Both the position numbers and the translations under genes were made by a program. Positions 225 through 23,591 of a stretch of DNA of 50,784 nt are shown in pieces. The notes under the pieces are model-generated. The model had not been told where the DNA came from. It saw nothing but the letters and a program-made list of their open reading frames with translations, and did not search any database. This stretch comes from Nemertoderma westbladi (taxonomy: Eukaryota; Animalia; Xenacoelomorpha): positions 1 through 50,784 of the forward strand of contig JAUCBJ010001918.1 of the NCBI GenBank assembly GCA_032718475.1, in the 5' to 3' direction. Position 1 is the stretch's first letter. Every line of letters starts with the position of its first letter.

Positions 225-362
225 CTTGTCGGTCACCATGACGTCACTATAAGCGTGAACTTTGTATGCGCCTCTGATCTTCCGAACTCCGGGATATAAA
301 AGTTTAGCCATATTGATAAATGCGACTCCGTGGAATGTGTAACTGGTATCCTCCACTGACTC
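225..362 (-). CDS. CFAP70: Internal coding exon of CFAP70/TTC18 (ESVEDTSYTFHGVAFINMAKLLYPGVRKIRGAYKVHAYSDVMVTDK); gene continues off the left end
   Basis: Acceptor cttttccag| before 362, donor AAG|gttgga after 225; 138 nt, phase 0/0. Peptide resembles the vertebrate CFAP70 segment [29 protein letters not shown] (recalled, not searched). Confidence 0.85.
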
Positions 363-940
363 CTGGAAAAGTGTGACAACATTTAAATAAGCGAATGATG
401 AATGTAAATTAATTAATATATTAATTATTAATAATTAATATAATAATGTCCAGGTTTATAAACAAGTTATATAAGAAGAATAAGAAGAATTTAAATTTAT
501 AGCAGATAGTGTTGCAAATTGACCGCAAGTGGCAAAGGTGATCTTCAGCTCAAATTGACAGCAAGTGAAATAAAGTTTAGTTTAATATTTTGGAGAGAAA
601 ACACCGCCTCTGTATGTTGTTTGTAACCTGCTCCTTTCTCTTATTAAAGTTTTCAATCAAATGAAATAAATTTTTTATAAACCCCCTAAATACCTGTTGG
701 TGTTTGCGGTCATTTATTGTGCCGTTATTGTCTGGTTTGACAAATCATTTTGGATATAATAAGGACAATGAAAACAATTCAAACTGCAAACAACCCAAAC
801 AAACTACACTACGGGGCCTACGAAACAATAATTATAGTCAATCCTCGCTCTCCATCATCAGTCCCATTATTGTAAACAAATTGAATAATAATTATGACTC
901 CCATGCACTTGCACTACTACTCTGTGAGATACATAATTTT

Positions 941-2210
941 ACACGAAGTGGGGCCTTCGCGCAGCACGTGAAATGAGTTAATGCTAAGTATCAACTCGAA
1001 AGGATTATAAAAACATAGGAGAAGATTTTCCCGGAAAACGTTAACCCTCTAGCGGGAGACTGGGTAACTGAAGAAGGAAGGATTAGTTTCCCTACAAAGC
1101 CACAGCCTATGGTCTATTACATATCTACCAAGTTTCCGATTGACGGATCATAAATAACGAAATGTTGGAAGGTTTTCACTTTCATACATTTAGCCCTCTA
1201 GCGGCATATTAAAGAACTACGGATCGATCACCTTCCTCACAAAGACGAGGCATGTGGTCTAGTACATACCGGTACTGTATATTCCAAAATTCAGCTTAAA
1301 TAGATTAAGATCAAGGAATTCGCGAAGGTTATCACTTTCCTACATTTCGCCCTCTAGCGGCAGACTCGAAAACTCCGGACCGATTACTGTCCACACAAAG
1401 ACTTAGGATGTCTTCTAGTACATATATGACAAGTTTCAGCGTAATCAGATCATAAACAACTAAATGGAAGAATAATTTCACATTCGGGACATTTCGCCCT
1501 CTAGCGGCAGACTGGAGAACTGCAGACAGATTAGCCTCCTTTGAAATTTACAGCTAATGGTCTAGTACATACTTCCCAAGTTTCAGCTTAAACGGATTAA
1601 AAGCAAAGAAATGGGTGGCCATTTAATGTTTAGACATGTGGCCCTCTACCGGCAGACTGGAAAACTTCGGACCGATTACAATCCACACAAAGACTCAGGA
1701 TGTCATCTAGTACATATATGACAAGTTTCAGCGTAATCAGATCATAAACAACTAAATGGAAGAATAATTTCACATTCGGGACATTTCGCCCTCTAGCGGC
1801 AGACTGGAGAACTGCAGACAGATTAGCCTCCTTTGAAATTTACAGCTAATGGTCTAGTACATACTTCCCAAGTTTCAGCTTAAACGGATTAAAAGCAAAG
1901 AAATGGGTGGCCATTTAATGTTTAGACATGTGGCCCTCTAGCGGGAGACCATTGCACTGATGGTGTCTGAAAGTCTCTCAAAAATCTCAACTTTTGCTCA
2001 TATTGATACCTACAAATTTTCAACTTGGCAGCTTTAAATCCGACAAAGTTATTAGCATGTCAAAATCGTAACGACGACGACGACGACGACGACGACAACG
2101 ACGACGACGACACGACGACGACGACGACAACTATTTGCATAAATTGACCCACCCCCTAACAGTGTCAATTCGCTAAGGCTCCGCCAACTTCGTGGCTCGC
2201 CCCACATGAT
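941..2210. mobile_element. Non-autonomous Helentron/DINE-1-like (HINE-type) element with about 147-bp internal tandem repeats
   Basis: Imperfect subterminal inverted repeats (acacgaagtggggccttcgcg at 941 vs cgctaaggctccgccaacttcgtgg at 2171), seven core units each with CCCTCTA(G/C)CGG, a near-exact 292-bp internal duplication, (GAC)n near the 3' end, T-run at the 5' flank. Confidence 0.6.
2071..2130. repeat. (GAC/ACG)n microsatellite, about 19 imperfect units
   Basis: Directly visible acgacgacg run inside the element above. Confidence 0.95.
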
Positions 2211-2471
2211 CTTAATTTAGTTATTCATGCTTATACTTGCTACCAAGGCAACAACTTGCTACCTAGGTGCAGTGTACCGGTACAATATTTATGTTGTTTA
2301 GTCACCAGTAGGACTATTAATTCCAAGTGTTGCATGCTGTCGTTCCTTTGGCATCCTGTCAACCCCTGCATTTGTTTTCGCTGTGTTCTGGTTATTGCAA
2401 CAGGTTTTAAAGTCGAGAATGTGTGAAAACAATTCTAATTAACTAGATATTTTATAGAGACACTATTTACT

Positions 2472-3143
2472 ATGTCGGATGTAGCTGATGTTGAGTTACC
2501 GAACGGTGACTTATCTGACGAAGACGTGGAAACCTTAAGCTCCGGCGAAGTCGCAAAGAAACTCCAGGAAGCCTGGCTTAACGAAAAGTTTGCCCCCGAG
2601 TTGCTGACCCCGGCAACCGATATTCTAGAATGTATGTTGGAGCAGATCGAATCGCTGGATGCGAACCTTCGTACCGCGATGGATTCGGGACACATTAGCG
2701 CGAAGATGCCAATACATCGGATGGAGTTGGAACGACTGCGATACGTTGTAGTTAGTTACATTCGAACGCGATTGGCTAAAATCCAAGGGAATGTGTGGCA
2801 GATATTAGCCAATGAGAGTGAGCGGATCAAACTGATGCCCAATGAGAAGGTTTTCGCTGAGGGTTATAGGGCTTCCGTGGAAGAAGTCTTTGAATCCAGT
2901 GCGCTCTCCAAACTCCCCGGTAGCTTCCGGACTCTGGACAGAACCAGTCTGGAGACGGTAGGACGACCCAATCTCAACAGTTACGTGTTCGCCCAGATAG
3001 GGGAACACCAGACTGGTTTAGCTATCCCGGAGCCAACGGGAGACACTGAGGATATTGTGGACTTGGAGGCCGGTTCCAAACACTTACTACCATACAAATG
3101 CATTATGAGTCAAATACAGGATGGGCAAGTGAATCTTACGTAG
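2472..3143 (+). CDS. GINS4: DNA replication complex GINS subunit SLD5, 223 aa, uninterrupted CDS
   Basis: Sld5 motifs AWLNEKFAPELL, MELERLRYVVVSYIRTRLAKI, PNLNSYVF, DLEAGSKHLLPY; typical length. Confidence 0.95.
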   Translation: MSDVADVELPNGDLSDEDVETLSSGEVAKKLQEAWLNEKFAPELLTPATDILECMLEQIESLDANLRTAMDSGHISAKMPIHRMELERLRYVVVSYIRTRLAKIQGNVWQILANESERIKLMPNEKVFAEGYRASVEEVFESSALSKLPGSFRTLDRTSLETVGRPNLNSYVFAQIGEHQTGLAIPEPTGDTEDIVDLEAGSKHLLPYKCIMSQIQDGQVNLT

Positions 3144-4148
3144 ATGTTGCGTTCAGGCCTACCTAATCCGCAGTCTACATAAATATATATAAAGCATATT
3201 CCTTTAATTCATTTTGCTTCCAGACCGCCTTAATAAGTTTGTTTGTTACAGTTATTATTCATACCGGTATAGAAGTCATTCGTATATTTTTATAACAGTG
3301 TTTCGGTGTTTCGTTAAACACAAATGCTCTCTCTTCCATTATACATCAATGATGTCATATATAAATTAAACGTCCGATGTTCTAATAATACGGCTTATTA
3401 GCATTTTAACATCATCCCAGTTATATAACAACCCCATGACTGACCCCTTTAGTTGTATAACTGGTAACAGATTGCGTTAAAACGTGGCGCCACCAGTAAT
3501 GCAATATAGTGGGGGCGGTTCTATTGATGGAATAATTATGTGTGCCAATATAGAATACTATGAGACTTAGAAATCATCACGGACTTCAGAGCCGTACCAG
3601 TCCAACTAACCCAGTTCGGGATTAGTCTACCGCACGGGGATAATATTGAGGATTGTTAAGTTATTAAAGTATATTATTTTACGCAACAAATTTGTTCAAA
3701 CCAAACCAGCACAAAAGAAATATTATTAACAACTAAGTCGTGGGTTAAGTTGGGGGTTAAATCCCAATATTATTATGTATCAGCTAATTGATATAAACTA
3801 ATAAAGTCGTACGTTTTATAGCACACATTGACACTCAACTCATCATCAGTTATTACACTACTAATTGGGTAATTAACACAGCGATAGAGGTGTCACAGAG
3901 ATCCTGAAACCATCATAATCATGGTTATTTCAATAAATGTATGAGTTTCCGTTTATAAATATAAATTAGATTTCTCTAAGTCCATTATTACAATGAATAC
4001 AATCCATTGAAACATCTGTTGCCATTCCTTTACCCTGCACTGAGTGCACTAAGTAATGTAATGTAAGATGTTGTGTATTGAAATGACATCACCATCTACC
4101 CACAACCTCCACCTATTAATCACACAACTCTCAAATATAAATAACCAG

Positions 4149-6236
4149 CTAATAACTTCTTCCAAATAACGTATAATTAACCGCGGTTCTAGAACACGAC
4201 TTATGGACGCATTTAATTCCTTTAGACTGTATTTCCTCCTGGGTAACCGGTTGTTTGAACGGCACACACAGGGACTTGGCGCCCATAGAGGGAGCTCCTT
4301 CCTCGACCTCCAATCTCGCACTGTCAGCCTTTATACGATCCTCACATTCCTCAACGTGGCAGAAAGGGGCCTGGATGATCATTCGCTGATCCAACATCGA
4401 ACAAAACTCATCCCAGGAATCTGTTACCCCCAAGTGTTCATCCAGTTGTTGTTTAGCGCGATCGTACAACCATTTCTGGATGACATCCAACAGTTGAGTC
4501 ACGTCATTGACGAGGTCATCAACCGCTATATCTACTCTCTCGCCATTGTCGCGTCTCACAGCTACAACTTTGTTCATCGCGATATCTTTAGGCCCAATTT
4601 CAACTCTCAAGGGGACGCCCTTCAACTCCCAGTGATTAAACTTCCATCCAGGAGAGTAATTTTCACGGAAATCTCCTTTAACACGCAACCCAGATTTCTT
4701 GAGAAGGCCTTCGTATCGGACGCAGGTATCCAGGATGGATTCCTTGACTTCCGGTTTCATTCCTGCAGTGATCCCGCACGGAATGACTACCACCTGCAAG
4801 GTCGCCAACCTCGGTGGCATCACAAGCCCCTGATTATCTCCGTGAACCATGGCCATCACGCCTATAGTCCGGGTAGTCAACCCCCAGGAGTTCTGGAACA
4901 CGTGAAGATGTTCCGACGGATTCTTGGGATCCTCGTACATAATGTCGAACATTTTACTAAAGTTTTGGCCCAGATGGTGGCTAGTGGCTCCCTGTATGGC
5001 CCTCCCACTCCCTGGAATATACGCCTCAATGGTCGTCGTAAAATCCGCACCTGCGAACTTCTCCTTTTCGGTTTTGCGACCACGCACTACCGGTATGGCC
5101 ATTAATTCCTCGTAGATTCTCGCGTAGAGTTCTAGAATCGTGTGCACTTCGTCCACCGCCTCCTCCCGTGTAGCGAAGGCAGTGTGGCCTTCCTGCCATA
5201 GAAACTCTCTGGTTCGTAGGAACGGCTGCGGATGTTTGAACTCCCATCGGACCACGTTGTTCCACTGATTCAGTCGCAGCGGGAGGTCCCTGTGCGACTG
5301 GATCCACTTCGCGTAAGCCGGGTACATAACCGTCTCGCTGGTGGGTCGCACCGCGATCGGTTGGTCCAGCTCCGATTGGCCGGATCTCGTTACCCAGGCA
5401 ACCTCGGGCGCAAAGTCCGCGATGTGGGTCTTCTCTTTCTCGAGGGCGTTCTTGGACACGAACATCGGGAAGTAAACGTTCTCTACGCCGAGCCCTTTTA
5501 TCGCGTCATCGAACCAACGTACGATCTTCTCCCAAACCGCGTAGCTCCAATTCCTCAGGATGTAACAACCAGAAACATCGTAGTATTCGATCATTTCCGC
5601 CTTTATTATAACCTGGGTGTACCACTCGCTGAAGTTACCTTCCTTCGTGGCTTCCAGACCCAGCCTTGTCTGTTTCTTCGTTTCTCCTTCCACAACCTTC
5701 CCACCTTCAGCTGCAGCCTCTTTATTAACCTTATCGCTTTTCTTCGCCTGTCTTCCAGCACTAATTTCCTCGCCTGTTAGGTTCTTATATTCGAGTTTTA
5801 AGTCAAGTAATTTCTTTATTTCGATATCCAACACATCCTTTGAAGCCGCTGACGATTTCAGCTCCCTAACTTTCTCTCCTTGCTCCGAAATATCGCGCGT
5901 TAGTTTCTCAATTGTTTCCATTTTATCTCCAGAAATAATAACCTGTTTCTTTTTTTCAGCTTTCTTATCTTTTTTCTTCAATTTTTCCTCTTTATTAATA
6001 ACTTTACTAGCTTTACTCCCTAAATCCTCAGTGACACTAACACCCGGCACAGATGGCGTCCACTGCCTCCCACTCAACTCCTTATACTCTGTCTTTAGAG
6101 CCAATAGCGTCGCCACTTCAGCTGTAACCGCCTCCTTATTGGCTGATGATTGTTTCAGCTCCCTTATTAAGTCTCCCTGTTGGCGAATGTTGGCGTCCAA
6201 ACCAGCCAATCGGTGTCCAGCAGCCAGAGGATCCGC
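4149..6236 (-). CDS. EPRS: EPRS exon 3: two WHEP repeats plus complete prolyl-tRNA synthetase
   Basis: Acceptor ttgtag|GCG in frame with ORF 4149-6209. WHEP repeats IRQQGDLIRELK...LLALKTEYK and ISEQGEKVRELK...LLDLKLEYK; ProRS motifs RPTSET, FLRTREFLWQEGHT, GATSHHLGQNF, C-terminal LFGRSY. Confidence 0.96.
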   Translation of the reverse strand, partial: ADPLAAGHRLAGLDANIRQQGDLIRELKQSSANKEAVTAEVATLLALKTEYKELSGRQWTPSVPGVSVTEDLGSKASKVINKEEKLKKKDKKAEKKKQVIISGDKMETIEKLTRDISEQGEKVRELKSSAASKDVLDIEIKKLLDLKLEYKNLTGEEISAGRQAKKSDKVNKEAAAEGGKVVEGETKKQTRLGLEATKEGNFSEWYTQVIIKAEMIEYYDVSGCYILRNWSYAVWEKIVRWFDDAIKGLGVENVYFPMFVSKNALEKEKTHIADFAPEVAWVTRSGQSELDQPIAVRPTSETVMYPAYAKWIQSHRDLPLRLNQWNNVVRWEFKHPQPFLRTREFLWQEGHTAFATREEAVDEVHTILELYARIYEELMAIPVVRGRKTEKEKFAGADFTTTIEAYIPGSGRAIQGATSHHLGQNFSKMFDIMYEDPKNPSEHLHVFQNSWGLTTRTIGVMAMVHGDNQGLVMPPRLATLQVVVIPCGITAGMKPEVKESILDTCVRYEGLLKKSGLRVKGDFRENYSPGWKFNHWELKGVPLRVEIGPKDIAMNKVVAVRRDNGERVDIAVDDLVNDVTQLLDVIQKWLYDRAKQQLDEHLGVTDSWDEFCSMLDQRMIIQAPFCHVEECEDRIKADSARLEVEEGAPSMGAKSLCVPFKQPVTQEEIQSKGIKCVHKSCSRTAVNYTLFGRSY

Positions 6237-6610
6237 CTACAATAAATACTAATGATTATTAGTTAATTCATAAATTGTAATTAATAACATAATTTTGTTT
6301 TATAATGTAAATAGTAAGTCGGGCAAAACATAATCGAACCGCCTATATAGTGAATCTCAGATATGAAGAAATACATTTATTTTTGCTGTGTCCTTTTATT
6401 TTTACAATAAAATTAAAATTCTTAACATATCAACTATAAGGAAAATAATAATAAAATAATAAATAATAAGGAAAATTAAATAATTTCCGTCCCGGACAAT
6501 CGGACACTTGTGTCGGGTCGATTATTTTTTTGAAAAACTGTGAAACAATTATCAGCTATTATATTTAACGATTCTATAGTGTGTTTATAAACAACTCAAT
6601 CGTTCCTAAC

Positions 6611-7541
6611 CTTTTTCGTTCCCTCCTCTGAGCGTTCTACCTCCCCACGTCCGGATCGATGTTCCCCCTTAATCGATTTCGATCCGACGTCTTTCTGACT
6701 GCCGTCCGGTATGTATATCAGTTGGCATGGAGACGGCCTACTGGTGTACTTATTAACGGGTTGATACGGAGAATCGCAGATATAGAAACCCTTCCGTTGC
6801 AACTGAATAACATCGCCTTTAACTAAAACCGATAAACAGGGATCCCCCAACATTAGTTCCTCCTTGCGAGTTTCTTTGTTAATAAAATCCTTGAAGTTGT
6901 CGTCTTTACCCAAAACCGCCTTGGATATTAAATGATTAAACTCATTGCAAACAGTCGGTACAGTTTCAGCTAGATGTGTATCCGCCAACCAGGTTAACTT
7001 TAACGTTTTCTTATAGTCCGTGTTCTCCAGGTTGAGTTTCGCTTTGACTTCGGTAACGCGCTTGGTATCGTCCCGTAACACTTCTGTAACGATGACGTTA
7101 CCCCAGTTAATCAGCGTTACTACGGCCCCTTCCGCCAGTAACTCCGCGTCTACCGAGTCTATGAATATATCCGGGGCGAACCAAACTGTTTTATTACCGA
7201 CTTCTGGGTTCTTAGGATGTTTAGAGACTTCCTTAGACTCGGTAACAGCCCCGACGACTCGCATAGTTACCGCGTGTAACTTAGCAACAGCCGTGTATCT
7301 CGCGGCTACTGGGTCTATTCGCTTTTTGTTGATAGACCATATTTTGTCCCACTCCATAGTGACTACAGACTTGGAGCCGCCCTGCGCGACTATAAAGTCC
7401 TTTAGTGCGTCGACAGTGAGCCCTTTACGTAACATCCCCCGCACCGTAGGGAACCTAGGGTCATCCCATCCCTCAACAAATCCTTCCTCAACGAACCAAG
7501 TTAGTTTCCTTTTAGATAACAACGTGTACTGCAGGTTCAAC
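6611..7541 (-). CDS. EPRS: EPRS exon 2: rest of the GluRS catalytic domain and anticodon-binding domain
   Basis: Acceptor ttttag|G completes WEYAR/LNLQYTLLSKRKL; GWDDPRFPTVRG and IQLQRKGFY motifs; donor AAG|gttagg (phase 0). Confidence 0.95.
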
Positions 7542-8069
7542 CTAAAATGTACCAATAATCCGAGTAAAATAAAAAATAAGAGAAGATATAAATACATGTG
7601 CGTACGTTATAAATAAACTTTCAGTTTCTGTCCGAATCACCCCCCCTCACCACCCCCCCCCCCCCCTTCATCTCACACCCACCACTCCAGGGTATTTTGT
7701 TTTCAAATATTTAATTTTCGATAAGTTAATGTGCATCAAATTATATTTCCATTAGTTGTGTATTATCTGTTGTGAATATCATATAGCGTGGAGGATTAAA
7801 GATTAAAAAAATAATAATAATTTTATGCTAATAATGTGACGCACACAATTGCAGCACGAGAGCATGCGTTGCAGGGATATTATATAGAATTAATGGCGCA
7901 AAAAGACCACAAATAAGAAATATGTGGGTTTAATATTTAGTGGGTTTTAAATTTAAATTAAATTTAATTAATTTAAAATATTAAGGGAAAGGAGCAGATT
8001 ACAGTATCGGTGTTATATAACCAAAAGTATAAACAAAACTTTGTACTAATTTCAGCTACCAGTAGTAAA

Positions 8070-9875
8070 GTAACTGGATGCACCAATTTGTAACCTGGTA
8101 TTCAAATTAGAAACTGGGTACTCCAATCTGTAACTGGATGCACCGATCTGTAACCTGGTATTCAAATTAGAAACTGGGTACTCCAATCTGTAACTGGATG
8201 CACCGATCTGTAACCTGGTATTCAAATGAGAAACTGGGTACTCTAATCTGTAACTGGATGCACCGAATTGTAACCTGGTATTCAAATTAGAAACTGGGTA
8301 CTCCAATCTGTAACTGGATGCACCGATCTGTAACCTGGTATTCAAATTAGAAACTGGGTACTCCAATCTGTAACTGGATGCACCGATTTGTAACCTGGTA
8401 TTCAAATTAGAAACTGGGTACTCCAATCTGTAACTGGATGCACCGATCTGTAACCTGGTATTCAAATTAGAAACTGGGTACTCCAATCTGTAACTGGATG
8501 CACCGATCTGTAACCTGGTATTCAAATTAGAAACTGGGTACTCCAATCTGTAACTGGATGCACCGATTTGTAACCTGGTATTCAAATTAGAAACTGGGTA
8601 CTCCAATCTGTAACTGGATGCACCGATCTGTAACCTGGTATTCAAATTAGAAACTGGGTTCTCCAATCTGTAACTGGATGCACCGATTTGTAACCTGGTA
8701 TTCAAATTAGAAACTGGGTACTCCAATCTGTAACTGGATGCACCGATCTGTAACCTGGTATTCAAATTAGAAACTGGGTACTCCAATCTGTAACTGGATG
8801 CACCGATTTGTAACCTGGTATTCAAATTAGAAACTGGGTACTCCAATCTGTAACTGGATGCACCGATCTGTAACCTGGTATTCAAATTAGAAACTGGGTA
8901 CTCCAATCTGTAACTGGATGCACCGATTTGTAACCTGGTATTCAAATTAGAAACTGGGTACTCCAATCTGTAACTGGATGCACCGATCTGTAACCTGGTA
9001 TTCAAATTAGAAACTGGGTACTCCAATCTGTAACTGGATGCACCGATTTGTAACCTGGTATTCAAATTAGAAACTGGGTACTCCAATCTGTAACTGGATG
9101 CACCGATTTGTAACCTGGTATTCAAATTAGAAACTGGGTACTCCAATCTGTAACTGGATGCACCGATCTGTAACCTGGTATTCAAATTAGAAACTGGGTA
9201 CTCCAATCTGTAACTGGATGCACCGATCTGTAACCTGGTATTCAAATGAGAAACTGGGTACTCCAATCTGTAACTGGATGCACCGAATTGTAACCTGGTA
9301 TTCAAATTAGAAACTGGGTACTCCAATCTGTAACTGGATGCACCGATTTGTAACCTGGTATTCAAATTAGAAACTGGGTACTCCAATCTGTAACTGGATG
9401 CACCGATCTGTAACCTGGTATTCAAATTAGAAACTGGGTACTCCAATCTGTAACTGGATGCACCGATTTGTAACCTGGTATTCAAATTAGAAACTGGGTA
9501 CTCCAATCTGTAACTGGATGCACCGATCTGTAACCTGGTATTCAAATTAGAAACTGGGTACTCCAATCTGTAACTGGATGCACCGATTTGTAACCTGGTA
9601 TTCAAATTAGAAACTGGGTACTCCAATCTGTAACTGGATGCACCGATTGGTAACCTGGTATTCAAATTAGAAACTGGGTACTCCAATCTGTAACTGGATG
9701 CACCGATTTGTAACCTGGTATTCAAATTAGAAACTGGGTACTCCAATCTGTAACTGGATGCACCGATTGGTAACCTGGTATTCAAATTAGAAACTGGGTA
9801 CTCCAATCTGTAACTGGATGCACCGATTTGTTACCTGGTATTCAAATTAGAAACTGGGTACTCCAATATGTAACT
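8070..9875. repeat. 60-bp tandem array (about 30 near-identical copies, three ~20-bp subunits) in EPRS intron 1
   Basis: Unit aatctgtaactggatgcaccgat(c/t)tgtaacctggtattcaaattagaaactgggtactcc recurs in register on each 60-nt line. Confidence 0.98.
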
Positions 9876-9936
9876 GAAATCTGAAAACTGAAATTGGTAA
9901 CCATGTACTGAAATAAGTAACTGGAGACTGAAATTG

Positions 9937-10062
9937 GTAACCGGTTGCACCAATATGTAATCAGGTGCTCCAATTAGTAACCGGTTGCACCAATATGTAA
10001 TCAGGTGCTCCAATTAGTAACCGGTTGCACCAATATGTAATCAGGTGCTCCAATTAGTAACC
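9937..10062. repeat. 40-bp tandem repeat x3 (two ~20-bp subunits related to the 60-bp array)
   Basis: gtaaccggttgcaccaatatgtaatcaggtgctccaatta at 9937, 9977 and 10017. Confidence 0.95.
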
Positions 10063-10428
10063 GAACACTGAAATTTAAATCTGGGTGATCTATTGATAAT
10101 TCTTCCAATCTTTGTATATCTCAGTTGTTTCTCAATGAAATTCAGATTTCAGTTACTTACTATTTCGAAATCCAGTTACATATTTGGATTCCAAGCAACG
10201 CAATTGCTTTGTAATGATACATAAAAATCGTCAAGAATGGCCGAGGTGCAATTGAACAAAATCAATTTTGTTAAATCAATTTTTCAGACAAATTTGGTGA
10301 AAAATGCTGTGCGAAAAAACGTTTGGTACTTTCTTGGACTGTGGAATTTGTAATTGTAGTGTAAAATATCACAGAAATTCGTAAAATCGACCGCCCCCCA
10401 CACTTATCCCGCCCCCCTCCCCACTCAC

Positions 10429-11666
10429 CTCGCATACTCCCACACATGCGGACTCCGTAACCCCAATTCCCGTAGGAACCAGTAGTACTGATCGTCGCGA
10501 TCCCGGTACTCCGTGGTCCTCAGGGCGTGAGTGACTCCCTCCACCGAGTCCACTATCGGACACGCGAAATCGTAAGTGGGATAGACCCGGTAGCGATCCC
10601 CGGTCACCAGATGTGGCTCCGACTTGCACCGATAGATGGTGGGGTCCCGCAGACACCCGTTATCCGACGCCATATCGATCCTCGCGCGCAGACAGCATCG
10701 CAACCCAACCTCCGAGCCCGCAACCATCTCCGCCCAACCGCGCAGGTTCTCCTCAACCGAGTTCCCTCGCCTCCGCGACTCGCTACGCTCTTCCCGCTCG
10801 CGTCGCATTGTCTCCGCGTCCGTATCGTCGACGTACGCCTTCCCTTCCCGTATCAACTTATCCGCGAACCCCAACAACTCCTCGAAGAAGTCGCTCGTGT
10901 GGCTAAACTGATCCGGTTTGATCCTCAACATCTCCAAATCCTCGAGGATGACTTTCTCGAAGTCTGCCTTTTCCTTTGCGGGATTCGTATCGTCAAACCG
11001 CATTATCAACTTCCCTTGGAAGGCCGTCTGGTAATGGGCGTTGAGCAGCGCCGCCTTAGCGTGTCCGATGTGTAGATATCCAGACGCCTCGGGCGGGAAC
11101 CGCACCACAACCTTCCCCATCTCGGCCCCGGGCAGCGCCACGTACTTCCCTTCTTCCTTCCGTTGTGGCGTCGTTTCTTTCCGCTTTGGAATCGACGTAG
11201 AGACCCGTTGGAACCCCGGGATTTGGGACAGATGCGAAAACCACCGAGACACGTGGGGTTGTCCGGGATTGGCTTTGTAGTCCGCGAGGTACAAGGCGCC
11301 CCAAACAGCGAAGTCCGCCAACGTAACGTTGTGTCCAACCAGGAAGGTCCTAGGAGCGAGACTATAGTTTAATTCGATGAGTCCTTCATCCGAAGGGAGT
11401 CTCATCACGGAGTAATCCAACCAATGATCTACCTCTGTCTGTTGCACAGGGTCCCCCCCATACAGACGGAGTTCCGGAGATTGACGAGCTAAGTACCGCG
11501 CTATAGAGAACCCAGAAGTTAGCTTTATATTAGCGGCGAGTTGCAGTTGAGTTGCGTCTCCCCATTTGATGTTGACAGATTCTTTGGAATGTTCCGCTGC
11601 TAGAAGGGCCGCTATTGGTGGGTTGATCTTCGACGCTGTTAGAACTGGGATCGATAAGGCAGGCAT
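10429..11666 (-). CDS. EPRS: EPRS coding exon 1: GST-like domain plus N-terminal part of glutamyl-tRNA synthetase; spliced CDS 4257 nt, 1418 aa
   Basis: RFPPEASGYLHIGH (HIGH motif), MRFDDTNP, YPTYDFACPIVD; donor AG|gtgagt in phase 2, matching exon 2. Confidence 0.96.
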
Positions 11667-13427
11667 GGTCGATGGTTTCGATAGATATTTAATAACAATA
11701 AAATGTATATATATAATATTTTCTCATCAATAACAGAAGCAGAATAAACTCACAGTATGCTATGCAGTAGAGCATTGTAGGCCTACGTACAGTAAGTAAG
11801 GTTCACGTTCAGTGTTAATTAGAAAGGCAACAGTTGAACAGCAAAAAAGTAAAAGAAGTTAGGCTACCCTACCGTCATGCGTCATACCGTAGGTGGTAGG
11901 TCAGTAGGTAAGGTGCTCGACTGACCATAATAAATTATATCCAAACCGGGCCATACAGCAACTGAGCAATGGCAAATAAGCGATGCTGCTTGCTGCAGGC
12001 GAGCGAAGCGAGCTAAAATCCCGCGAGCGAAGCGAGCTAATGTTTTGGGGTTATGTTACGGTATGTCTGTTGTTAATGTGTTTTTTGAATTAGCTGAATA
12101 GAGTAAACTCTAACCATAACATAATCCTTAACAATCAATACTGAATACTGGAATACACAATAAACAGATAAACCCGGGAAACAAGTGTGACATTTGATTT
12201 AAACAATTATGTCAGTACGTGTCCCAAGAGAAACCATTGAAGCTTTGGGACACCAGGCGCCAGGACATGTCACTCAAAAACTCAAAACCTTAGTGGTCGG
12301 TGAAACAATCTCACTCTTCTGCAGTGAATACACGATCGTAGGGCCATCGCGCAGGACGAGGCTCAGTTATCAGATACAGATTAAAATTGAGCAATTATAT
12401 CCCAAAATCGGTACTTAAGAAATTTAAATAAATAAATAAGAAATTTAACCAAACCGCCTATAAGAATAAATCAAAGAAGAAAGGAAAGTTCCCCTTTACC
12501 TTATGCCGATAGTATTGATACTGGAATATTAATTTATCATGTCAATGCCTCAACGAAATCATTTAGCTAAAATATCTAAAGAATCACCATTAAATTCAGC
12601 CAATCATTGTGCAAGATAGAGAAAGCTCAGTGGAAGGATGATTACAATGTTTCCCAGCTAGGCAATATCACATGTATCAAGAACGTCAAGCAGCCAAGAC
12701 TAGATGTATAGAGTGATGGAATGCATTTTAACTTAATTACGTTTAGATCAATTAAAAACACATTTCTTAAAGCAAATCTCTTGAACTAATTAAAAACTAT
12801 AATGGAATGGTGTATGGGGATTACAGCAGTATAACTTTTAAGTATAATTATTTAAATCTTATACTAGAAAATAATTAATATCCTTTAAGGAGGCAGGTTG
12901 AAATTGGTGTTTTTACCCTAATCAACTTAATTAACTAATTAACTGCTATTATCTTCTGATCTTAGCTTCTCGAAGGCCACGCGAAAATTCAACTTGGAAA
13001 ATTTCAAAACTTTGGCCAGACTACATGTGTACTAAGTTTGGTTAAATTTCATTATCATTTGGCTGAGTTATTAACGTTTACAATTGGAATTGGACACAAC
13101 AGAACGACAGAACAACAGACACACCGATTGAGTTAGTGGTACCGGTACCTGTATGCCACAGAACATGGTAGAGTACCGGTACCTCACCTCAGTCTGTCAG
13201 TACCTGTCTGCCTGTAACTGCAATGAAAAGCAAACTGTCTCGGCGGTCTGTCTGACCTAATCTCACCATACTGCCATAACTGCATAAGCAAATACCGTAA
13301 GGAAATAAATGCAAAAGTAAAGTAGGCCTACGGGCTACGGCCCTACGGCTGTACGGAATGAAATAGGCCTAATCAATAATGGTTGAACAGTTGAATGGAA
13401 AGGTTTCTTGTCTGACTGTGGAGATCC

Positions 13428-13555
13428 GAGATCAACTACAACTGTACGATCTGTATCCCGTGTTGTGCTGAGTGCTGGAGTGGAAGATCAACTACGATCT
13501 GTATCCCCTGTTGTGTTGAGTGGAAGATCGACTACGGTACGATCTGTATCCCATG
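13428..13555. repeat. Three degenerate ~45-55-bp direct repeats
   Basis: gatc(a/g)actac...acgatctgtatccc...tgttgtg repeated three times. Confidence 0.75.
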
Positions 13556-14182
13556 TCCCATTTTCTTGTCAACAGGCAGACAGGCATTCACTGATGCCTG
13601 AACGAAATAAGTCAGTAAGTGTAGGCCTCAAGCAGTAAGTAAATCAAAGTTAGCCGGCATTCAGACGTTAAGCTGTTAAGAGTCTAACCAAGCTGCCAAG
13701 GACTACCTGACAGCCTGACTACTGAAGCTTCAGTCTGTCAGTACGGTAGTCTGGTAGTCTTTGAGAGTCTAACCAAATAATCTGCTTTTCAGTACCGGTA
13801 TTACGATAAATCCAAATTTATCAGAAATTCAAATGTACAACTGTACTGCATTTCAATGTATTGCATCATACGGTACATCATGCTCACGCAACTGTATGTG
13901 TTCTGGTGTTGCCTAGTTACGTTATGGCAATAAAAGCGATAATGATGCAATACTGTATACACATTTTTTTTAAACAAAAATCTTCTTGAGAACCAAGTTG
14001 AATGAACAAAATATGAAATATATATTCTGTGACCTCCCGACGAGTTTCCGGGCAGAGCCTTGTGTCAAAAAAATTTAGTTTGAATTCAAAATGTTTCCAA
14101 AAACAATAATTAGTATTGAAAAAGTCTTCCAATCATCAATATTACACCATAGTTACACTGAAGCAATTCTTCATCCACCAGT

Positions 14183-14475
14183 TAGCTGCTCTGGAGTGGT
14201 CACGCCTTTGCTTCTAGCTGGCTAGGTCACGGGTTCGATCCCGGTCCGAACCAGTTTGAAATTCGTAACTATGGTGCGCCAACCCAGCGATATGGGAATT
14301 GGGAACGGATTCTGCTAGAGGAGTAAATAAAAAGGGTTGGATATTTATGTAGGGTTCACCCTTGGGAATCAGTGTGGCGCCCTACGCGCCTTCTGTAGGT
14401 AGCCAAGAAAGTGAGCCTTCGGGTTGCCTCCAGTTGTTTCGTGTTCATGTTCAACTCCCCTCATGTTCAACTTTA
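14183..14475 (+). mobile_element. tRNA-derived SINE
   Basis: A-box-like ctggagtggtc (~14191), B box GGTTCGATCCC (14232-14242), about 200-bp body, short repeated tail catgttcaact; no convincing cloverleaf. Confidence 0.65.
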
Positions 14476-14614
14476 CCGATCATTTTTTCTTTAATTCTTC
14501 GTACTTTTTAATTATTTCTTGGTATTGAGATTGAGGGTATTTATACAATAATGTCTTATGTTACTTATAATGGCTTTGCAAAGATTATAAATCTGTCACA
14601 GACATCTAAATTTC

Positions 14615-15208
14615 GTTGCCGACCAAAAATTATTAATTTATGGTCGACCAAAAATTATTAATTTATGGTCGGCCATAACTTAATTCCTGGTTGTTTGAAT
14701 TTCCCGGTAACTTGTAGGTCGAGATTTTGACTGGCCATTCATTGGTTAGGGTAGTGGGAAACCATCCAATTGCACGTTTATTTGAATGTATTTACTTAAA
14801 GTAACCAATGAATGGCCTGTCCAAATCTCACCCTACAAGGTACCGGGAAATTCAAACTTCCAGAAATTAATTTATGGTCGACCATAAATTAATTTTTGGT
14901 AAACCATAAATTAATTTTTGGTAAACCATAAATAAATTTTTGGTCGACCATAAATGATTTATTGGTCGACCATAAATTAATTTTTGGTCGACCATAAATT
15001 AATTTTTAGTTGACCATAAATTAATCTTTGGCCGACCCGTCGACCATAAATTAAATTTTTGTCGACCATAAATTATGACGTCATGGAGAATTTCTGGGAA
15101 AAAAATAAAAAATTAATTAATTAATTGGCAAAGATCAGCCACCGTTTACTAATGACGAAAAGGAGTAAGAAACAAGCGCGAAATCGCGCAAAGGTCCGCG
15201 TCTACTAA
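14615..15208. mobile_element. Foldback / non-autonomous DNA element: long imperfect hairpin plus ~22-bp tandem repeats
   Basis: Arm ~14640-14747 is inverted at ~14802-14910; ggtcgaccataaattaattttt repeats to ~15075; terminal hairpin gcgcgaaatcgcgc at ~15176. Confidence 0.55.
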
Positions 15209-15635
15209 CGCATAAACTGTCTCCTCGAATGGCTTACTTCCAAATCTTACTATCAAAAAAATTCACCGGAATGGGAGGATTGAACTCGGTACCTAGAGAT
15301 TCCAAGTCATTCGCCCATATAACCAATCATTCTATGTATATACAGTTAGAAAGAGGGAAATTTAAAAACCGTACGTTGGTAAAGGTACAGTCAGTATCTT
15401 GCTGTCTGTCTGTCTTCGGCCATCTCTTGGTAATGCTTGTACTGCTACAGCCTACCGGCGGTATGTAATTGTATTTTGCGGTACGATACGTTATGGGGAT
15501 GGAATGCACGTCCTAATCGTCAACGTTATCCACTGACCCATCGAATAGACGTAATCGATTTTGAGAATCCTGTACCATACACTGCACTGCCTGACTACCA
15601 GACTCCAGACTGCTGCACGCTGCACCGCACCCAAC

Positions 15636-15671
15636 CAAGGCCATCTAAATAACGTTATTTAGATGGCCTTG
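15636..15671. repeat. Perfect 36-bp palindrome
   Basis: caaggccatctaaataac|gttatttagatggccttg, no spacer. Confidence 0.95.
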
Positions 15672-15936
15672 ACCGCTCCAGACACCACACCACTCACCAG
15701 TACTGAGAGTGAGAGACTGACACACTACTACAGTTGACAGTTTGAGACACTAAAAAATAGGCCCACTTATTACTTTGCTCTTTCTTGGAAGTCAGGAAGT
15801 GCACCTAACTGCCTAACAGCCGAAGTAATTTGTAACCAAACCATACAGCCATATAGATGTATAGGCATAGGCCTATACTGCTGACTGCAGTACTGCTATG
15901 TATGTATATCACTACTGTACTACAGTACTATGTTCA

Positions 15937-17856
15937 ATGTTTCGCGTATTAACTATCAATGGCATTAGTAATACAGTCAGTGTTATAAAACCTTCAGTTT
16001 TCGTATTAACCTGTTACCAATCTTCCTACAAACTACGACAAACTTTCACTGTAAACCGAAGACGCGCAAACTCTCAAGATTGTAACACTCAGAGTCAGCC
16101 ATTCGATATTGCCATGGCTACCAACTCAGAGCATCACATTATCAAGGAAGGACTGGCGGAAATCATGTGCCCTTCAGCCAATCAGGTCTTCTACAATCCA
16201 GTACAAGAGTTCAACCGCGATCTAACGGTGGCGGTTGTTAATGTTGAGATAGTTGCGACCCTGGGTGGCACCAATAATGTGGCGCAGTGCGACGAACTTA
16301 GCCACGAAACTTCCGCCAACCGAAAGCGATTCGCAATCCTCGAAGCTCTCTCGGCTACTGGACTGCGTTCTATTCGCTTCGCCAAGGAGGTCCCGGGTGT
16401 AACCATGGTGACAGCCAATGACATATCGAGTTCGGCCGCGGCGATTATTGCGGCAAACATCGAGCGTAACGGGGTGGGTCATCTGGTAACCCCTAGCAAC
16501 CGGGACGCGGTCGCACTGATGAAGGAGTCCGCGGGTTCCTATGACGTCATCGACGTGGACCCGTACGGAAGTCCGTGTGGGTTCCTGGACGCGGCGGTAG
16601 AGGGCGTCACAAGCGGCGGACTCCTGTGCATCACCTTCACAGACGTCGCCATCCTCCACGGGAAGAACCCCGAGACCTGCTACGCCCGCTACGGGGCGTC
16701 CTCGTTGCGTGCCGGATGCGGCCACGAGATGGCGCTACGCATCGGGCTCCATGCCGTCAGCCAATCAGCGGCGCGCCACGGCCGATACATAGAGCCGCTG
16801 GTCTCTCTCCGCGCCGACTTCTACATCCGTCTGTTCGTCAGGGTTACTCGCGGGCAATCCGTTGTCAAGGGCAACGCGGCCGCTACCAGTATCGTCTATA
16901 TGTGTCCGCATTGCGAGTCGCACTGGTTGCAGCCGCTAGGGGGCGCCAGAGGGCCAGACAGTCGGGGACAGCCGCTCTACTGTGCCGCCTCGGCGGTGGA
17001 GATGCCCCCTGGCGGACGCTGCGCGCATTGCGGAACGGGACTGCGCGTCGGCGGCCCTATCTGGGCCGGTCCGATCCACAGCCGGGAGTATATCGGGAGA
17101 ATTCTAGCACATCTGGGGAGTGGCGCCATCCAGCGGCCGGTTGACGGAACTCCACCGGACGCCACCCAGCGGCCAGTAGAGGCAACACAACCTGACGCCA
17201 CCCATCGGCCGGTAGAGGGACCTCCACGTTACGCCACCCAGCGGCTGGTTGACGGAACTCCTCCACGGTACGCCACCCAACGACGGATGGAAGGCACCCT
17301 CGCCGTAATGTTGGAGGAGCTCCCAGACGTCCCGCTCCATTACTCCATCGATAAACTCTCCGCCGCTCTGAAGCTACGCGGCTCCCCCACCCAGTTGGAG
17401 CTGCGCAGCGCGCTCATTGCAGCGGGTTACACCGTCTCCTACTGCCACACAAATAAACTATCAGTTAAAACCAACGCGCCGGCCCGCGTCCTCTGGGACC
17501 TCATGTTGCTATGGCACCGAGCGCACTCGGACACGGACCCCACTCCCTCCTCGGTGTCGGCTGTCTGTCAGCTACGCCGACGGACACCCGACATCGTCGC
17601 CGACTTTACGGTCCGTCCCGAAGCCACGCCGCCCTCCAAGTTTAATAAACTCGCGCGATTCCCGTTGAATCCGACGCCAAACTGGGGCCCTGGGAGTCGG
17701 GCGAAACGGCTGGCAAACAACCCGGAGGATTTAGTCGCTAAACGTTTGAGATTGCAAGGGAAGCGGTCTGGGGGAAGTAAACAGTCTGAAGGTAACGGCA
17801 CAACGTTGGCAGATAGTGGCACAGTGTCAGTAGATAGCGACAGTGTCGGTAGATAG
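15937..17856 (+). CDS. TRMT1: tRNA (guanine26-N2)-dimethyltransferase Trm1, uninterrupted CDS; in-frame starts possible at 15898, 15937 and 16114 (gccATGg)
   Basis: VFYNPVQEFNRDL, ILEALSATGLRSIRFAKE, DVIDVDPYGSP, DFYIRLFVRV, two CxxC motifs, GGPIWAGPIH, PNWGP. Confidence 0.95.
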   Translation: MFRVLTINGISNTVSVIKPSVFVLTCYQSSYKLRQTFTVNRRRANSQDCNTQSQPFDIAMATNSEHHIIKEGLAEIMCPSANQVFYNPVQEFNRDLTVAVVNVEIVATLGGTNNVAQCDELSHETSANRKRFAILEALSATGLRSIRFAKEVPGVTMVTANDISSSAAAIIAANIERNGVGHLVTPSNRDAVALMKESAGSYDVIDVDPYGSPCGFLDAAVEGVTSGGLLCITFTDVAILHGKNPETCYARYGASSLRAGCGHEMALRIGLHAVSQSAARHGRYIEPLVSLRADFYIRLFVRVTRGQSVVKGNAAATSIVYMCPHCESHWLQPLGGARGPDSRGQPLYCAASAVEMPPGGRCAHCGTGLRVGGPIWAGPIHSREYIGRILAHLGSGAIQRPVDGTPPDATQRPVEATQPDATHRPVEGPPRYATQRLVDGTPPRYATQRRMEGTLAVMLEELPDVPLHYSIDKLSAALKLRGSPTQLELRSALIAAGYTVSYCHTNKLSVKTNAPARVLWDLMLLWHRAHSDTDPTPSSVSAVCQLRRRTPDIVADFTVRPEATPPSKFNKLARFPLNPTPNWGPGSRAKRLANNPEDLVAKRLRLQGKRSGGSKQSEGNGTTLADSGTVSVDSDSVGR

Positions 17857-18259
17857 CGGCACAGTGTCAGTAGAAACCGCAAATCTCAAGGTACAGAGAA
17901 CGGTATAGACTAGTTTATGTTGACAACTAGATCCTGTGCGGCGGAGACAACCGGGTGGTTCTCATTATCCGTATCTCAACCGGGTGGTACCAACTGGTTC
18001 GTTATAGTCATTTATCTTGGATTCAACAAATTTATTAATATATTTTACTAATAATATATTCCGTCTCAAAAATATTTAAGTCTCAAAATATATTTATTTA
18101 TTTTTGACGTATCTTTGGATAATCGGGGTATTTATGTATTTGTGGATGAGATCAACATTAACGTTTGGTTGATGTGCTAAAATGCGAGCTTTTAGTTTTA
18201 TTCTTAAATTGTTAAATTTTGGACAGAAAATATCCCATAAATAATATATAAATAATAAC

Positions 18260-21200
18260 GCTAATAGTGACTACCTTAGAGCTACATCATGCTACATGCT
18301 CTGCTAATAGTGACTACCTTAGAGCTACATCATGCTACATGCTCTGCTAATAGTGACTACCTTAAAGCTACACCATGCTACATGCTCTGCTAATAGAGAC
18401 TACCTTAGAGCTCCATCATGCTACATGCTCTGCTAATAGAGACTACCTTAGAGCTACATCATGCTACATGCTCTGCTAATAGTGACTACCTTAGAGCTAC
18501 ATCATGCTACGTTCTCTGCTAATAGTGACTACCTTAGAGCTACATCATGCTACATGCTCTGCTAATAGTGACTACCTTAGAGCTACATCATGCTACATGC
18601 TCTGCTAATAGTGACTACCTTAAAGCTACACCATGCTACATGCTCTGCTAATAGAGACTACCTTAGAGCTCCATCATGCTACATGCTCTGCTAATAGAGA
18701 CTACCTTAGAGCTACATCATGCTACATGCTCTGCTAATAGAGACTACCTTAGAGCTCCATCATGCTACATGCTCTGCTAATTGAGACTACCTTAGGGCTA
18801 CATCATGCTACATGCTCTGCTAATAGTGAGTACCTTAGAGTAGAGCTACATCATGCTACATTCTCTGCTAATAGAGACTACCTTAGAGCTCCATCATGCT
18901 ACATTATCTGCTAATAGTGACTACCTTAGAGCTACATCATGCTACATGCTCTGCTAATAGTGAGTACCTTAGAGTAGAGCTACATCATGCTACATTCTCT
19001 GCTAATAGTGACTACCTTAGAGCTACATCATGCTACATTATCTGCTAATAGTGACTACCTTAGAGCTACATCATGCTACATGCTCTGCTAATAGTGACTA
19101 CCTTAGAGCTACATCATGCTACATGCTCTGCTAATAGTGACTACCTTAGAGCTACATCATGCTACATGCTCTGCTAATAGAGACTACGTTAGAGCTACAT
19201 CATGCTACATGCTCTGCTAATAGTGAGTACCTTAGAGTAGAGCTACATCATGCTACATTATCTGCTAATAGTGACTACCTTAGAGCTACATCATGCTACA
19301 TTATCTGCTAATAGTGACTACCTTAGAGCTACATCATGCTACATGCTCTGCTAATAGTGACTACCTTAGAGCTACATCATGCTACATGCTCTGCTAATAG
19401 TGACTACCTTAGAGCTACATCATGCTACATGCTCTGCTAATAGTGACTACCTTAGAGCTTCATCATGCTACATGCTCTGCTAATAGTGACTACCTTAGAG
19501 CTACATCATGCTACATGCTCTGCTAATAGTGACTACCTTAGAGCTACATCATGCTACGTGCTCTGCTAATAGTGAGTACCTTAGAGTAGAGCTACATCAT
19601 GCTACATTATCTGCTAATAGTGACTACCTTAGAGCTACATCATGCTACATTATCTGCTAATAATGACTACCTTAGAGCTACATCATGCTACATGCTCTGC
19701 TAATAGTGACTACCTTAGAGCTACATCATGCTACATGCTCTGCTAATAGTGACTACCTTAGAGCTACATCATGCTACATGCTCTGCTAATAGTGACTACC
19801 TTAGAGCTTCATCATGCTACATGCTCTGCTAATAGTGACTACCTTAGAGCTACATCATGCTACATGCTCTGCTAATAGTGACTACCTTAGAGCTACATCA
19901 TGCTACGTGCTCTGCTAATAGTGAGTACCTTAGAGTAGAGCTACATCATGCTACATTATCTGCTAATAGTGACTACCTTAGAGCTACATCATGCTACATT
20001 ATCTGCTAATAATGACTACCTTAGAGCTACATCATGCTACATGCTCTGCTAATAGAGACTATACCTTAGAGCTACATCATGCTACATGCTCTACTAATAG
20101 TGAGTACCTTAGAGCTACATCATGCTACTTGCTCTGCTAATAGAGACTACCTTAGAGTAGAGCTACCTTAGAGCTACATCATGCTACATGCTCTACTAAT
20201 AGTGAGTACCTTAGAGCTACATCATGCTACATGCTCTGCTAATAGTGAGTACCTTAGAGCTACATCATGCTACATGCTGTGCTAATAGTGACTACCTTAG
20301 AGTAGAGCTACCTTAGAGCTACATCATGCTACATGCTCTACTAATAGTGAGTACCTTAGAGCTACATCATGCTACATGCTCTGTCTGCAAATAGTGAGTA
20401 CCTTAGAGCTACATCATGCTACATGCTGTGCTAATAGTGACTACCTTAGAGCTACATCATGCTACATGCTCTGCTAATAGTGAGTACCTTAGAGTAGAGC
20501 TACATCATGCTACATGCTCTGCTAATAGTGACTACCTTAGTGCTGCATCATGCTACATGCTCTGCTAATAGTGAGTACCTTAGAGTAGAGCTACATCATG
20601 CTACATGCTCTGCTAATAGTGACTACCTTAGAGCTACATCATGCTACATTCTCTGCTAATAGTGACTACCTTGGAGCTACATCATGCTACATGCTCTGCT
20701 AATAGAGACTACCTTAGAGCTACATCATGCTACATGCTCTGCTAATAGTGAGTACCTTAGTGCTACATCATGCTACATGCTCTGCTAATAGTGACTACCT
20801 TACGGCTACATCATGCTACATGCTCTGCTAATAGTGACTACCTTAGAGCTACATCATGCTACATGCTCTGCTAATAGTGACTACCTTAGAGCTACATCAT
20901 GCTACATGCTCTGCTAATAGTGAGTACCTTAGAGCTACATCATGCTACATAGTGAGCACCTTAGAGTAGAGCTACATCATGCTACATTCTCTGCTAATAG
21001 TGACTACCTTAGAGCTACATCATGCTACATGCTTTGCTAATAGTGACTACCTTAGAGCTAAATCATGCTACATGCTCTGCTGATAGTGAGTACCTTAGAG
21101 TAGAGCTACATCATGCTACATGCTCTGCTGATAGTGAGTACCTTAGAGCTACATCATGCTACATGCTCTGCTAATAGTGACTACCTTAGTGCTACATCAT

Positions 21201-23061: not shown

Positions 23062-23108
23062 TATCTATATCCTCTACTTTGCGGCGGTTTTTCATAAACA
23101 TTCGATGG
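23058..23108 (-). CDS. Candidate 51-nt symmetric cassette exon (PSNVYEKPPQSRGYRYK) in the CFAP70 intron
   Basis: Acceptor ttgcctgcag|, donor TAAG|gtagtc coinciding with the start of the 43-bp array; open in phase 0. No homology support that I can recall. Confidence 0.35.
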
Positions 23109-23591
23109 CTGCAGGCAATCAATAGAATTAATATAATTAATATCAGCAAAATTTACAACAAAATAATAATAGAATAGATCAATGCTTGTAAATGTATTCC
23201 AATTGAAAGTTAACATTGTTGAATGATTATGCAGATCAGATACAGCATAGAGATCCTATAGATTGAGTTGATCGCTGATCGGTTGGTAGCATTTTATTAC
23301 TATTTATTGCAAAATAATGTAATAAATAGTAATAAAATTACTTTATTTGCTACCTTAACTTTATAGCGGCGACGACGTATTGTCGACTTGCTATAAAACA
23401 ATGCGAGCGCGATTCAAACAAACAGTGTCCAATAAATGCCTTAATCATAATGGGTAAAATAACTAGCTCCATAATATTCATGCCAAATATTATTATGATT
23501 ACAACAAATATTTTTGTAAGTTTTACGAAATTACAAGAACGTACTCGTACTCTGTAGTTATGAGATTTCCATCACCCACCTTTACCTTTCA

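What the first reader, a model, noticed from the sequence alone, without database searches (positions are those of the whole stretch)
4149..11666. EPRS is nested on the same strand as its host, with phase-compatible cross-splicing
Most nested genes are antisense. Here host transcripts must skip the EPRS splice sites and 3' end. The CFAP70 donor (39688), EPRS exon 3 acceptor (6236), EPRS exon 2 donor (6611) and CFAP70 acceptor (362) are all phase 0, so CFAP70-WHEP-ProRS or GluRS-CFAP70 chimeras would be in frame. By eye I find no minus-strand AATAAA between the EPRS stop and GINS4 (3144-4148), only an ATTAAA near 3203, consistent with a weak poly(A) site that permits read-through (inference).
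Basis: partly seen in the sequence, partly recalled or inferred. Interest (0 to 1): 0.7.

Follow-up and report, generated by a model that had tools for sequence, protein, structure and literature searches.

The report
EPRS nested same-strand inside CFAP70 intron
In this animal the gene for an essential protein-synthesis enzyme (EPRS) lies, in the same direction and with two other housekeeping genes, inside one 39-kb intron of a cilia gene (CFAP70); the layout is real as assembled and of a known kind, and the proposed hybrid proteins are likely no more than occasional splicing errors.

Summary
The nesting is confirmed. EPRS (minus strand, three exons, 1,418 aa) lies between two CFAP70 exons (39781-39688 and 362 onward) that are consecutive in the protein. 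The 39,325-nt intron also holds antisense GINS4 and TRMT1 and tandem arrays.

The four phase-0 sites are real but are only two introns. A match with at least one of EPRS's two introns is expected 56-72% of the time. The other EPRS acceptor (7541, phase 2) gives a stop 9 codons after the join, and the in-frame joins would cut CFAP70 inside a predicted beta-sandwich.

The missing AATAAA is not significant (0 seen, 1.19 expected, P=0.29). Antisense TRMT1 lacks one too, and the intron holds 17 sense-strand AATAAA elsewhere.

No RNA run was listed, so no junction was tested. Same-strand nesting is about 29% of Drosophila nested genes. What is atypical here is a large, spliced, essential gene inside a cilia-specific host. 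Also seen: three arrays copy CFAP70's own splice sites (240 extra exact donors after the upstream exon), a kind known from human F7.

Verdict: new member of a known kind; functional chimera about 4%.

The parts
10429..11666 (-). EPRS exon 1 (coding part): GST-like domain and first part of GluRS; donor phase 2
   Evidence: start codon not resolved against a possible 5' micro-exon
6611..7541 (-). EPRS exon 2 (931 nt): rest of GluRS; acceptor phase 2, donor phase 0 in the linker before the first WHEP
4149..6236 (-). EPRS exon 3 (coding part): two WHEP domains and ProRS, stop at 4151-4149; acceptor phase 0
40128..40277 (-). CFAP70 exon A (150 nt, phase 2 at both ends)
39688..39781 (-). CFAP70 exon B (94 nt, phase 2 to phase 0), the exon before the host intron
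225..362 (-). CFAP70 exon C, the exon after the host intron; starts phase 0; 3' end probably 225 (alternative 191, not resolved)
363..39687 (-). CFAP70 host intron B-C, 39,325 nt as assembled, phase 0
   Evidence: length uncertain because of exact kilobase duplications in the array
2472..3143 (+). GINS4/SLD5, single coding exon, 223 aa, nested antisense, convergent with EPRS
16114..17856 (+). TRMT1, single coding exon, 580 aa, nested antisense, divergent from EPRS
23598..39728 (-). 52/53-bp tandem array (about 310 units) made of the end of exon B plus its donor; 240 further exact AAG|GTGAGT copies from 39635 to 23634
3144..4148 (.). Space between the EPRS and GINS4 stops, holding both 3' ends; minus strand has no AATAAA but AATACA 4079, TATAAA 3957/3820/3294, ATTAAA 3208
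8070..9876 (.). 60-bp tandem array (30 units) inside EPRS intron 1
18260..23061 (.). 43-bp tandem array (about 108 units) inside the host intron

Best explanation
EPRS is an intact gene lying on the same strand inside one long CFAP70 intron, and the two genes likely work as independent transcription units, with hybrid RNAs likely arising only as rare errors. Shown by sequence: the nesting, intact frames and splice phases. Inferred: EPRS starts at its own promoter upstream of 11666 in all cells and ends at a non-canonical poly(A) site within about 1 kb of its stop. CFAP70 is transcribed mainly in sperm-forming and motile-ciliated cells, uses the first donor after exon B, and splices to 362, discarding EPRS, GINS4, TRMT1 and the arrays as intron. 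Removal of EPRS's own introns from the host pre-mRNA would be harmless. The costs are occasional use of an EPRS acceptor (7541 gives an early stop; 6236 gives an in-frame transcript ending at the EPRS 3' end) and some early termination, tolerated as leak. Origin (inferred): the nested genes entered an old CFAP70 intron and drifted to fixation.
For: Exons B and C are adjacent in homologues with no gap needing another exon: the spacing between two conserved motifs is 30 residues here (counted by hand from the join printed) and 25-41 in 33 of 33 homologues. No other CFAP70 exon is detected between them. Bivalve isoforms carry optional inserts at this same point, which suggests an old exon junction. 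Phase match is at chance level and the poly(A) gap is not significant. B to 7541 stops 9 codons after the join. The B/C junction maps to a loop between strands 314-322 and 340-347 of a beta-rich repeat in a mollusc CFAP70 model. Same-strand nesting with spliced inner genes is documented in Drosophila (50 hosts in Table 1 of PMC3814207) and 'many' parallel cases in a ctenophore. First-donor choice among identical copies is shown for human F7 (abstract). Mouse Cfap70 is highest in testis and moderate in ciliated tissues.
Against: No RNA of this organism was examined, so CFAP70 transcription across the intron is unverified. The pair reverses the usual pattern: same-strand nested genes in Drosophila are mostly single-exon (72.53%) and narrowly expressed, whereas EPRS is spliced and housekeeping, so it is presumably active in the same cells as CFAP70; interference at an active nested promoter is shown for H13/Mcts2 (abstract). 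The B-to-6236 join is in frame and would end at the normal EPRS stop, so it would likely escape decay. The structural model is weak around the junction (block pLDDT 40-65) and is of a mollusc protein.
Confidence: 0.8

Rival explanations
1. Regulated cross-splicing makes a functional hybrid: CFAP70 N-terminus plus WHEP-WHEP-ProRS, or GST-GluRS plus the CFAP70 C-terminal TPR region.
For: Both joins are open frames. EPRS intron 2 lies between the GluRS and WHEP domains, so the EPRS halves stay whole. A natural GluRS-only form of human EPRS exists (passage of PMC4394549).
Against: In-frame status is expected by chance 56-72% of the time; skipping exon B would also make exon A in frame with EPRS exon 2. 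The join cuts a predicted CFAP70 beta-sandwich. The donor at 6611 has its own acceptor 374 nt away against 6.2 kb to 362. No CFAP70 segment in 0 of 270 EPRS/GluRS-like proteins held, weak because none is from a close relative.
Confidence: 0.04
2. Interference is substantial and shapes expression: active EPRS transcription truncates most CFAP70 transcripts in the intron or at the EPRS 3' end, so full-length CFAP70 is made only where this is overcome.
For: Mechanism shown for H13/Mcts2 and for other nested genes (abstracts). 17 sense-strand AATAAA lie in the intron, 7 of them upstream of EPRS at 23347-23298 and 18202-18036.
Against: No RNA data. CFAP70 exons are intact, so enough full-length RNA is presumably made. 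AATAAA excess in those AT-rich stretches was not tested beyond shuffle means (12 seen, 8.9 expected over 9,145 nt).
Confidence: 0.09
3. The nesting is an assembly error, or CFAP70 is broken or split here and not transcribed across EPRS.
For: An exact 4,603-nt duplication inside the 53-bp array and a 2,653-nt one in the 56-bp array may be assembly products.
Against: Exon C is tied to EPRS by 3.8 kb of mostly single-copy DNA containing GINS4, with no copy of exon B in it, so exon B must lie beyond EPRS unless C is an orphan copy. All three exons are stop-free with matching phases.
Confidence: 0.07

Closest known systems
[quoted passage not shown]
   Same: A whole protein-coding gene inside one intron of another on the same strand, with inner introns; several genes in one host.
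   Different: There the inner gene is usually single-exon (72.53%), short (median CDS about 818 nt), narrowly expressed and often testis-biased, in a broadly expressed host. Here the inner gene is a 4.26-kb-CDS housekeeping enzyme with two introns and the host is a cilia/sperm gene.
Nested intronic genes of the ctenophore Hormiphora californensis (PMC8527503, passages)
   Same: Invertebrate genome with 2,357 nested genes in 1,654 hosts, several per host, 'many' parallel to the host.
   Different: That genome uses spliced leaders; no leader or Rfam match was found here and trans-splicing was not testable.
Mouse H13/Mcts2 and human nested-gene interference (PMC13309782, PMC3192792; abstracts)
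   Same: An active nested gene can cause intronic polyadenylation or exonisation of the host, the expected leak here.
   Different: Shown by experiment there and tied to an imprinted promoter for H13/Mcts2; untested here.
Human F7 intron 7 37-bp VNTR (PMC1557585, abstract)
   Same: A tandem repeat that starts across the exon end and copies the donor; the first donor is the one in frame.
   Different: Here 240 further exact copies over 16 kb as assembled, and two more junctions of the same gene are amplified.
Drosophila axonemal genes with satellite-filled giant introns, kl-3 and kl-5 (PMC6508621; search listing only)
   Same: Axonemal gene with repeat-filled long introns.
   Different: Those introns are megabase-sized; this one is 39 kb and carries housekeeping genes.

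Membership tests
Same-strand nested (intronic) protein-coding gene | Inner coding region lies wholly between two consecutive exons of the host | tested here: met
   Exons B and C adjacent in the profile (301-330, 330-373), none between; spacing within homologue range
Same-strand nested (intronic) protein-coding gene | Both genes on the same strand | tested here: met
   Both on minus
Same-strand nested (intronic) protein-coding gene | Both genes intact | tested here: inconclusive
   EPRS complete; only 3 CFAP70 exons (127 codons) lie in the window, all intact; rest of the gene not available
Same-strand nested (intronic) protein-coding gene | Host transcript spans the inner gene (B-C junction in RNA) | not testable with these tools
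   No RNA run was listed
Same-strand nested (intronic) protein-coding gene | Inner gene has its own start and 3' end and shares no exon with the host | not testable with these tools
   Needs 5' and 3' end sequencing; own ATG fits homologue N-termini
Functional chimeric (cross-spliced) transcript | Join is in frame | tested here: met
   chance expectation 0.56-0.72
Functional chimeric (cross-spliced) transcript | Join respects domain boundaries of both partners | tested here: not met
   Met for EPRS; for CFAP70 it falls in a loop between strands of a predicted beta-rich domain (low-confidence model)
Functional chimeric (cross-spliced) transcript | Junction seen in RNA, regulated, conserved | not testable with these tools
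   no close relative found
Splice-donor minisatellite (F7 IVS7 type) | First repeat unit spans the exon-intron boundary and copies the donor | tested here: met
   Array 23598-39728 overlaps exon B; 240 further exact donors
Splice-donor minisatellite (F7 IVS7 type) | Only the first donor is used | not testable with these tools
   Copies 2 and 3 are out of phase with 362 and copies 4 to 9 (the rest of the first 8 extra copies checked) lie past a stop; use in RNA untested

The most novel reading that the evidence does not exclude
In sperm-forming or ciliated cells this animal splices CFAP70 exon B onto the last EPRS exon (or EPRS exon 2 onto CFAP70 exon C) on purpose, making a tRNA-synthetase half tethered to a central-pair protein, so that nesting re-splits the fused EPRS and gives cilia their own ProRS/WHEP or GluRS form.
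Probability: 0.04. Interest if true: 0.75.

Novelty: new member of a known kind. Interest (0 to 1): 0.27.

Why it matters
As it stands it is one more same-strand nested gene, with the unusual polarity of an essential spliced gene inside a cilia-specific host. It would be a handy natural test of how a polymerase passes an active same-strand gene, its poly(A) site and about 240 decoy donors, if RNA for the species exists. It also warns annotators that CFAP70 will be split or fused with EPRS here. Only a regulated chimera would make it important, and nothing seen here points to one beyond chance.

Tried and rejected

RNA runs for 2400-7560: none was listed; this is no evidence either way, and no reads were laid.

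Lineage: no close relative (best EPRS core identities 62-70%; GINS4 35-42% among the 24 listed of 478 candidates; EPRS exon 1 best-scoring hit 58%). A tree of 41 sequences (query plus 40 hand-picked of 109 usable hits, no non-bilaterian outgroup, midpoint root) puts it on a long branch among deuterostomes and spiralians with weak support; phylum not determined.

Exon B alone found nothing in PDB or Pfam; it was identified by profile and tblastn. A weak CFAP70-like stretch at 580-744 (E 2.5; a stop codon just upstream in the tblastn alignment) was considered as a nearer upstream exon and rejected.

Selection against sense-strand AATAAA in the intron: not seen (12 vs 8.9 expected; plus strand 25 vs 14.7). 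Rfam: 0 matches. Single-sequence fold of exon C was uninformative. Alternative EPRS 5' micro-exon scored the same as the plain ATG (93.4 and 90.1 vs 93.4 bits). Donor array as U1 shield for the EPRS 3' end: judged unlikely, the last copy is 19.5 kb upstream (range of U1 protection recalled, not looked up).

Literature: 'CFAP70 + nested + intron' gave 2 cancer papers, listing only; 'nested intronic genes + same strand + genome' gave 1; searches listed no report of this pair by title or abstract start. The library lacks most subscription journals. Earlier-findings look-ups by genome, relatives, sequence and chimera words were empty.
Full report
Gene models. On the minus strand, 11666-10429, 7541-6611 and 6236-4149 have GT/AG ends and join into 1,418 codons and one stop. 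Pfam finds GST_C, the GluRS catalytic and anticodon domains, two WHEP repeats and ProRS; the 120 listed of 1,802 hits for exon 3 are nearly all EPRS or ProRS proteins. Intron 1 is phase 2 and intron 2 phase 0, the latter after codon 723, between GluRS and the first WHEP. GINS4 (+, 2472-3143) and TRMT1 (+, 16114-17856) are single coding exons. No close relative was found and the phylum is undetermined; it is an animal on a long branch.

Host. The exon at 362 matches mouse CFAP70 (E 3.7e-10) and 33 of 37 candidates, the named ones being mollusc proteins, mostly labelled CFAP70 or its synonym TTC18. A profile of these 33 over all 2,274 six-frame segments hits only three, all minus, in protein order: A (40277-40128), B (39781-39688), C (from 362). 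They join without a stop, phases 2 and 0. B and C are adjacent in the profile, the motif spacing across the join (30 residues, hand count) lies in the homologue range 25-41, and bivalve isoforms have optional inserts at that point, which suggests an old junction (inference). So EPRS, GINS4 and TRMT1 lie in a 39,325-nt CFAP70 intron. The nesting does not hang on the arrays: C is tied to EPRS by 3.8 kb with no copy of B in it. Array lengths are less sure: exact duplications of 4,603 and 2,653 nt occur.

Phases. Both proposed joins are open frames. But a donor and acceptor of one intron share a phase by definition, so the four sites are one coincidence. The chance that at least one of two nested introns matches the host is 0.56 with equal phases, 0.58 with recalled animal frequencies (0.47/0.30/0.23, not from a call), and 0.72 given a phase-0 host. 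Other joins: B to 7541, the modelled EPRS acceptor met first, stops after 9 codons; exon 1 to exon 3 stops early; exon 1 to C stops within C; A to exon 2 is in frame. In an AlphaFold model of a mollusc CFAP70 (16-row alignment, mean pLDDT 57) the junction (about residue 331-333) sits in a loop between strands 314-322 and 340-347, in a strand-strand-helix-strand pattern that repeats the N-terminal domain; the model's best matches are mouse and Chlamydomonas central-pair chains. Either chimera would thus likely carry a cut beta-sandwich; confidence in this is moderate. None of 270 EPRS/GluRS-like proteins held carries a CFAP70 segment, which is weak evidence.

Poly(A). No minus-strand AATAAA in 3144-4148 and ATTAAA at 3208 are confirmed. 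Shuffles expect 1.19 and give none in 29% of 1,000 runs. Variant hexamers lie nearer (AATACA 70 nt after the stop). TRMT1, which has no same-strand host in view, has none in 403 nt after its stop (one control). The host intron carries 17 sense-strand AATAAA, with no depletion in 9,145 nt of non-coding, non-array DNA (12 vs 8.9). The hexamer therefore says nothing about read-through.

Mechanism. Shown: layout, intact frames, phases. Inferred: two independent units. EPRS uses its own promoter and a non-canonical end. CFAP70, which in mouse is highest in testis and moderate in ciliated tissues (PMC13345628, passages), takes the first donor after B and the acceptor at 362. Of the first 8 extra donor copies checked, two are out of phase and six lie past a stop; first-donor choice is shown for human F7 (PMC1557585, abstract). 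The expected leak is early termination or use of an EPRS acceptor, as for H13/Mcts2 and other nested genes (PMC13309782, PMC3192792, abstracts). B to 6236 would end at the EPRS stop and likely escape decay, so some such reads would not be surprising and would not show function. No RNA run was listed, so none of this is tested.

Comparison. In Drosophila 71.27% of nested genes are antisense; same-strand ones are 72.53% single-exon, and Table 1 lists 50 same-strand hosts with spliced inner genes (PMC3814207, passages; confirmed in PMC5174743, passages). Mouse and human show only a slight bias (PMC11694760, passages). Hormiphora has 2,357 nested genes, many parallel (PMC8527503, passages). The class is known. 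This case differs in polarity: a large spliced housekeeping gene in a cilia-specific host. Earlier scan notes list other same-strand nested housekeeping genes in invertebrates (unchecked leads). A GluRS-only human EPRS form exists (PMC4394549, passages), the nearest precedent for a half-enzyme. I found no report of this pair.

Beside the finding. Three arrays are built from CFAP70's own splice sites: the 53-bp array (end of B plus donor), a 22-bp array at the acceptor of A (19 acceptor-like copies), and a 56-bp array from 40778 to the window edge whose unit translates like the homologue stretch just before exon A and carries a phase-2 donor (83 CAG|GTAAGT) that fits A. The kind is known from F7 and was noted many times in this scan.

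Verdict. Observation confirmed, interpretation partly supported. New member of a known kind, interest 0.27; functional chimera about 4%, interest 0.75 if true.

Noticed in passing
window 23598-39728 (-): 52/53-bp array seeded on the end of CFAP70 exon B and its donor; 240 further exact donor copies over 16 kb; only the first is in frame with the acceptor at 362 among the copies checked.
   Followed up: partly
window 40778-50784 (-): 56-bp array (about 180 units) whose unit looks like the end of the CFAP70 exon upstream of the window plus its phase-2 donor (83 CAG|GTAAGT, 53 CCG|GTAAGT); the AG|GT form resembles recursive splice sites but lacks a clear pyrimidine tract.
   Followed up: partly
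window 40271-40782 (-): 22-bp array (about 24 units) that copies the acceptor and first bases of CFAP70 exon A. Three of the six CFAP70 splice sites represented in the three introns upstream of exon C are thus amplified.
   Followed up: partly
window 30172-39328 and 44967-50784: Exact duplications of 4,603 nt (offset 4,554) and 2,653 nt (offset 3,165) inside arrays: very recent expansion or assembly product.
   Followed up: no
window 2472-3143, 4149-11666, 16114-17856: All three nested housekeeping genes are intron-poor (0, 2, 0 coding introns) while CFAP70 keeps short exons; recalled vertebrate orthologues have many introns. Could reflect retroposition or lineage-wide intron loss in housekeeping genes; untested.
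   Followed up: no
window 11775-11635 (-): Possible extra EPRS 5' micro-exon (ATG 11775, donor 11753, phase-1 acceptors 11644 or 11635); scores no better than the ATG at 11666.
   Followed up: partly
window 14620-15076 and 15636-15671: Inverted 22-25-bp repeat arrays forming a 300-450-nt palindrome, and a perfect 36-nt palindrome, between EPRS and TRMT1; possibly a non-autonomous transposon relic.
   Followed up: no
window 17124-17279 and 17811-17874 (+): 36-bp and 21-bp tandem repeats inside the TRMT1 coding exon, in frame.
   Followed up: no
window 1045-1949: 147/292-bp tandem repeat between CFAP70 exon C and GINS4.
   Followed up: no
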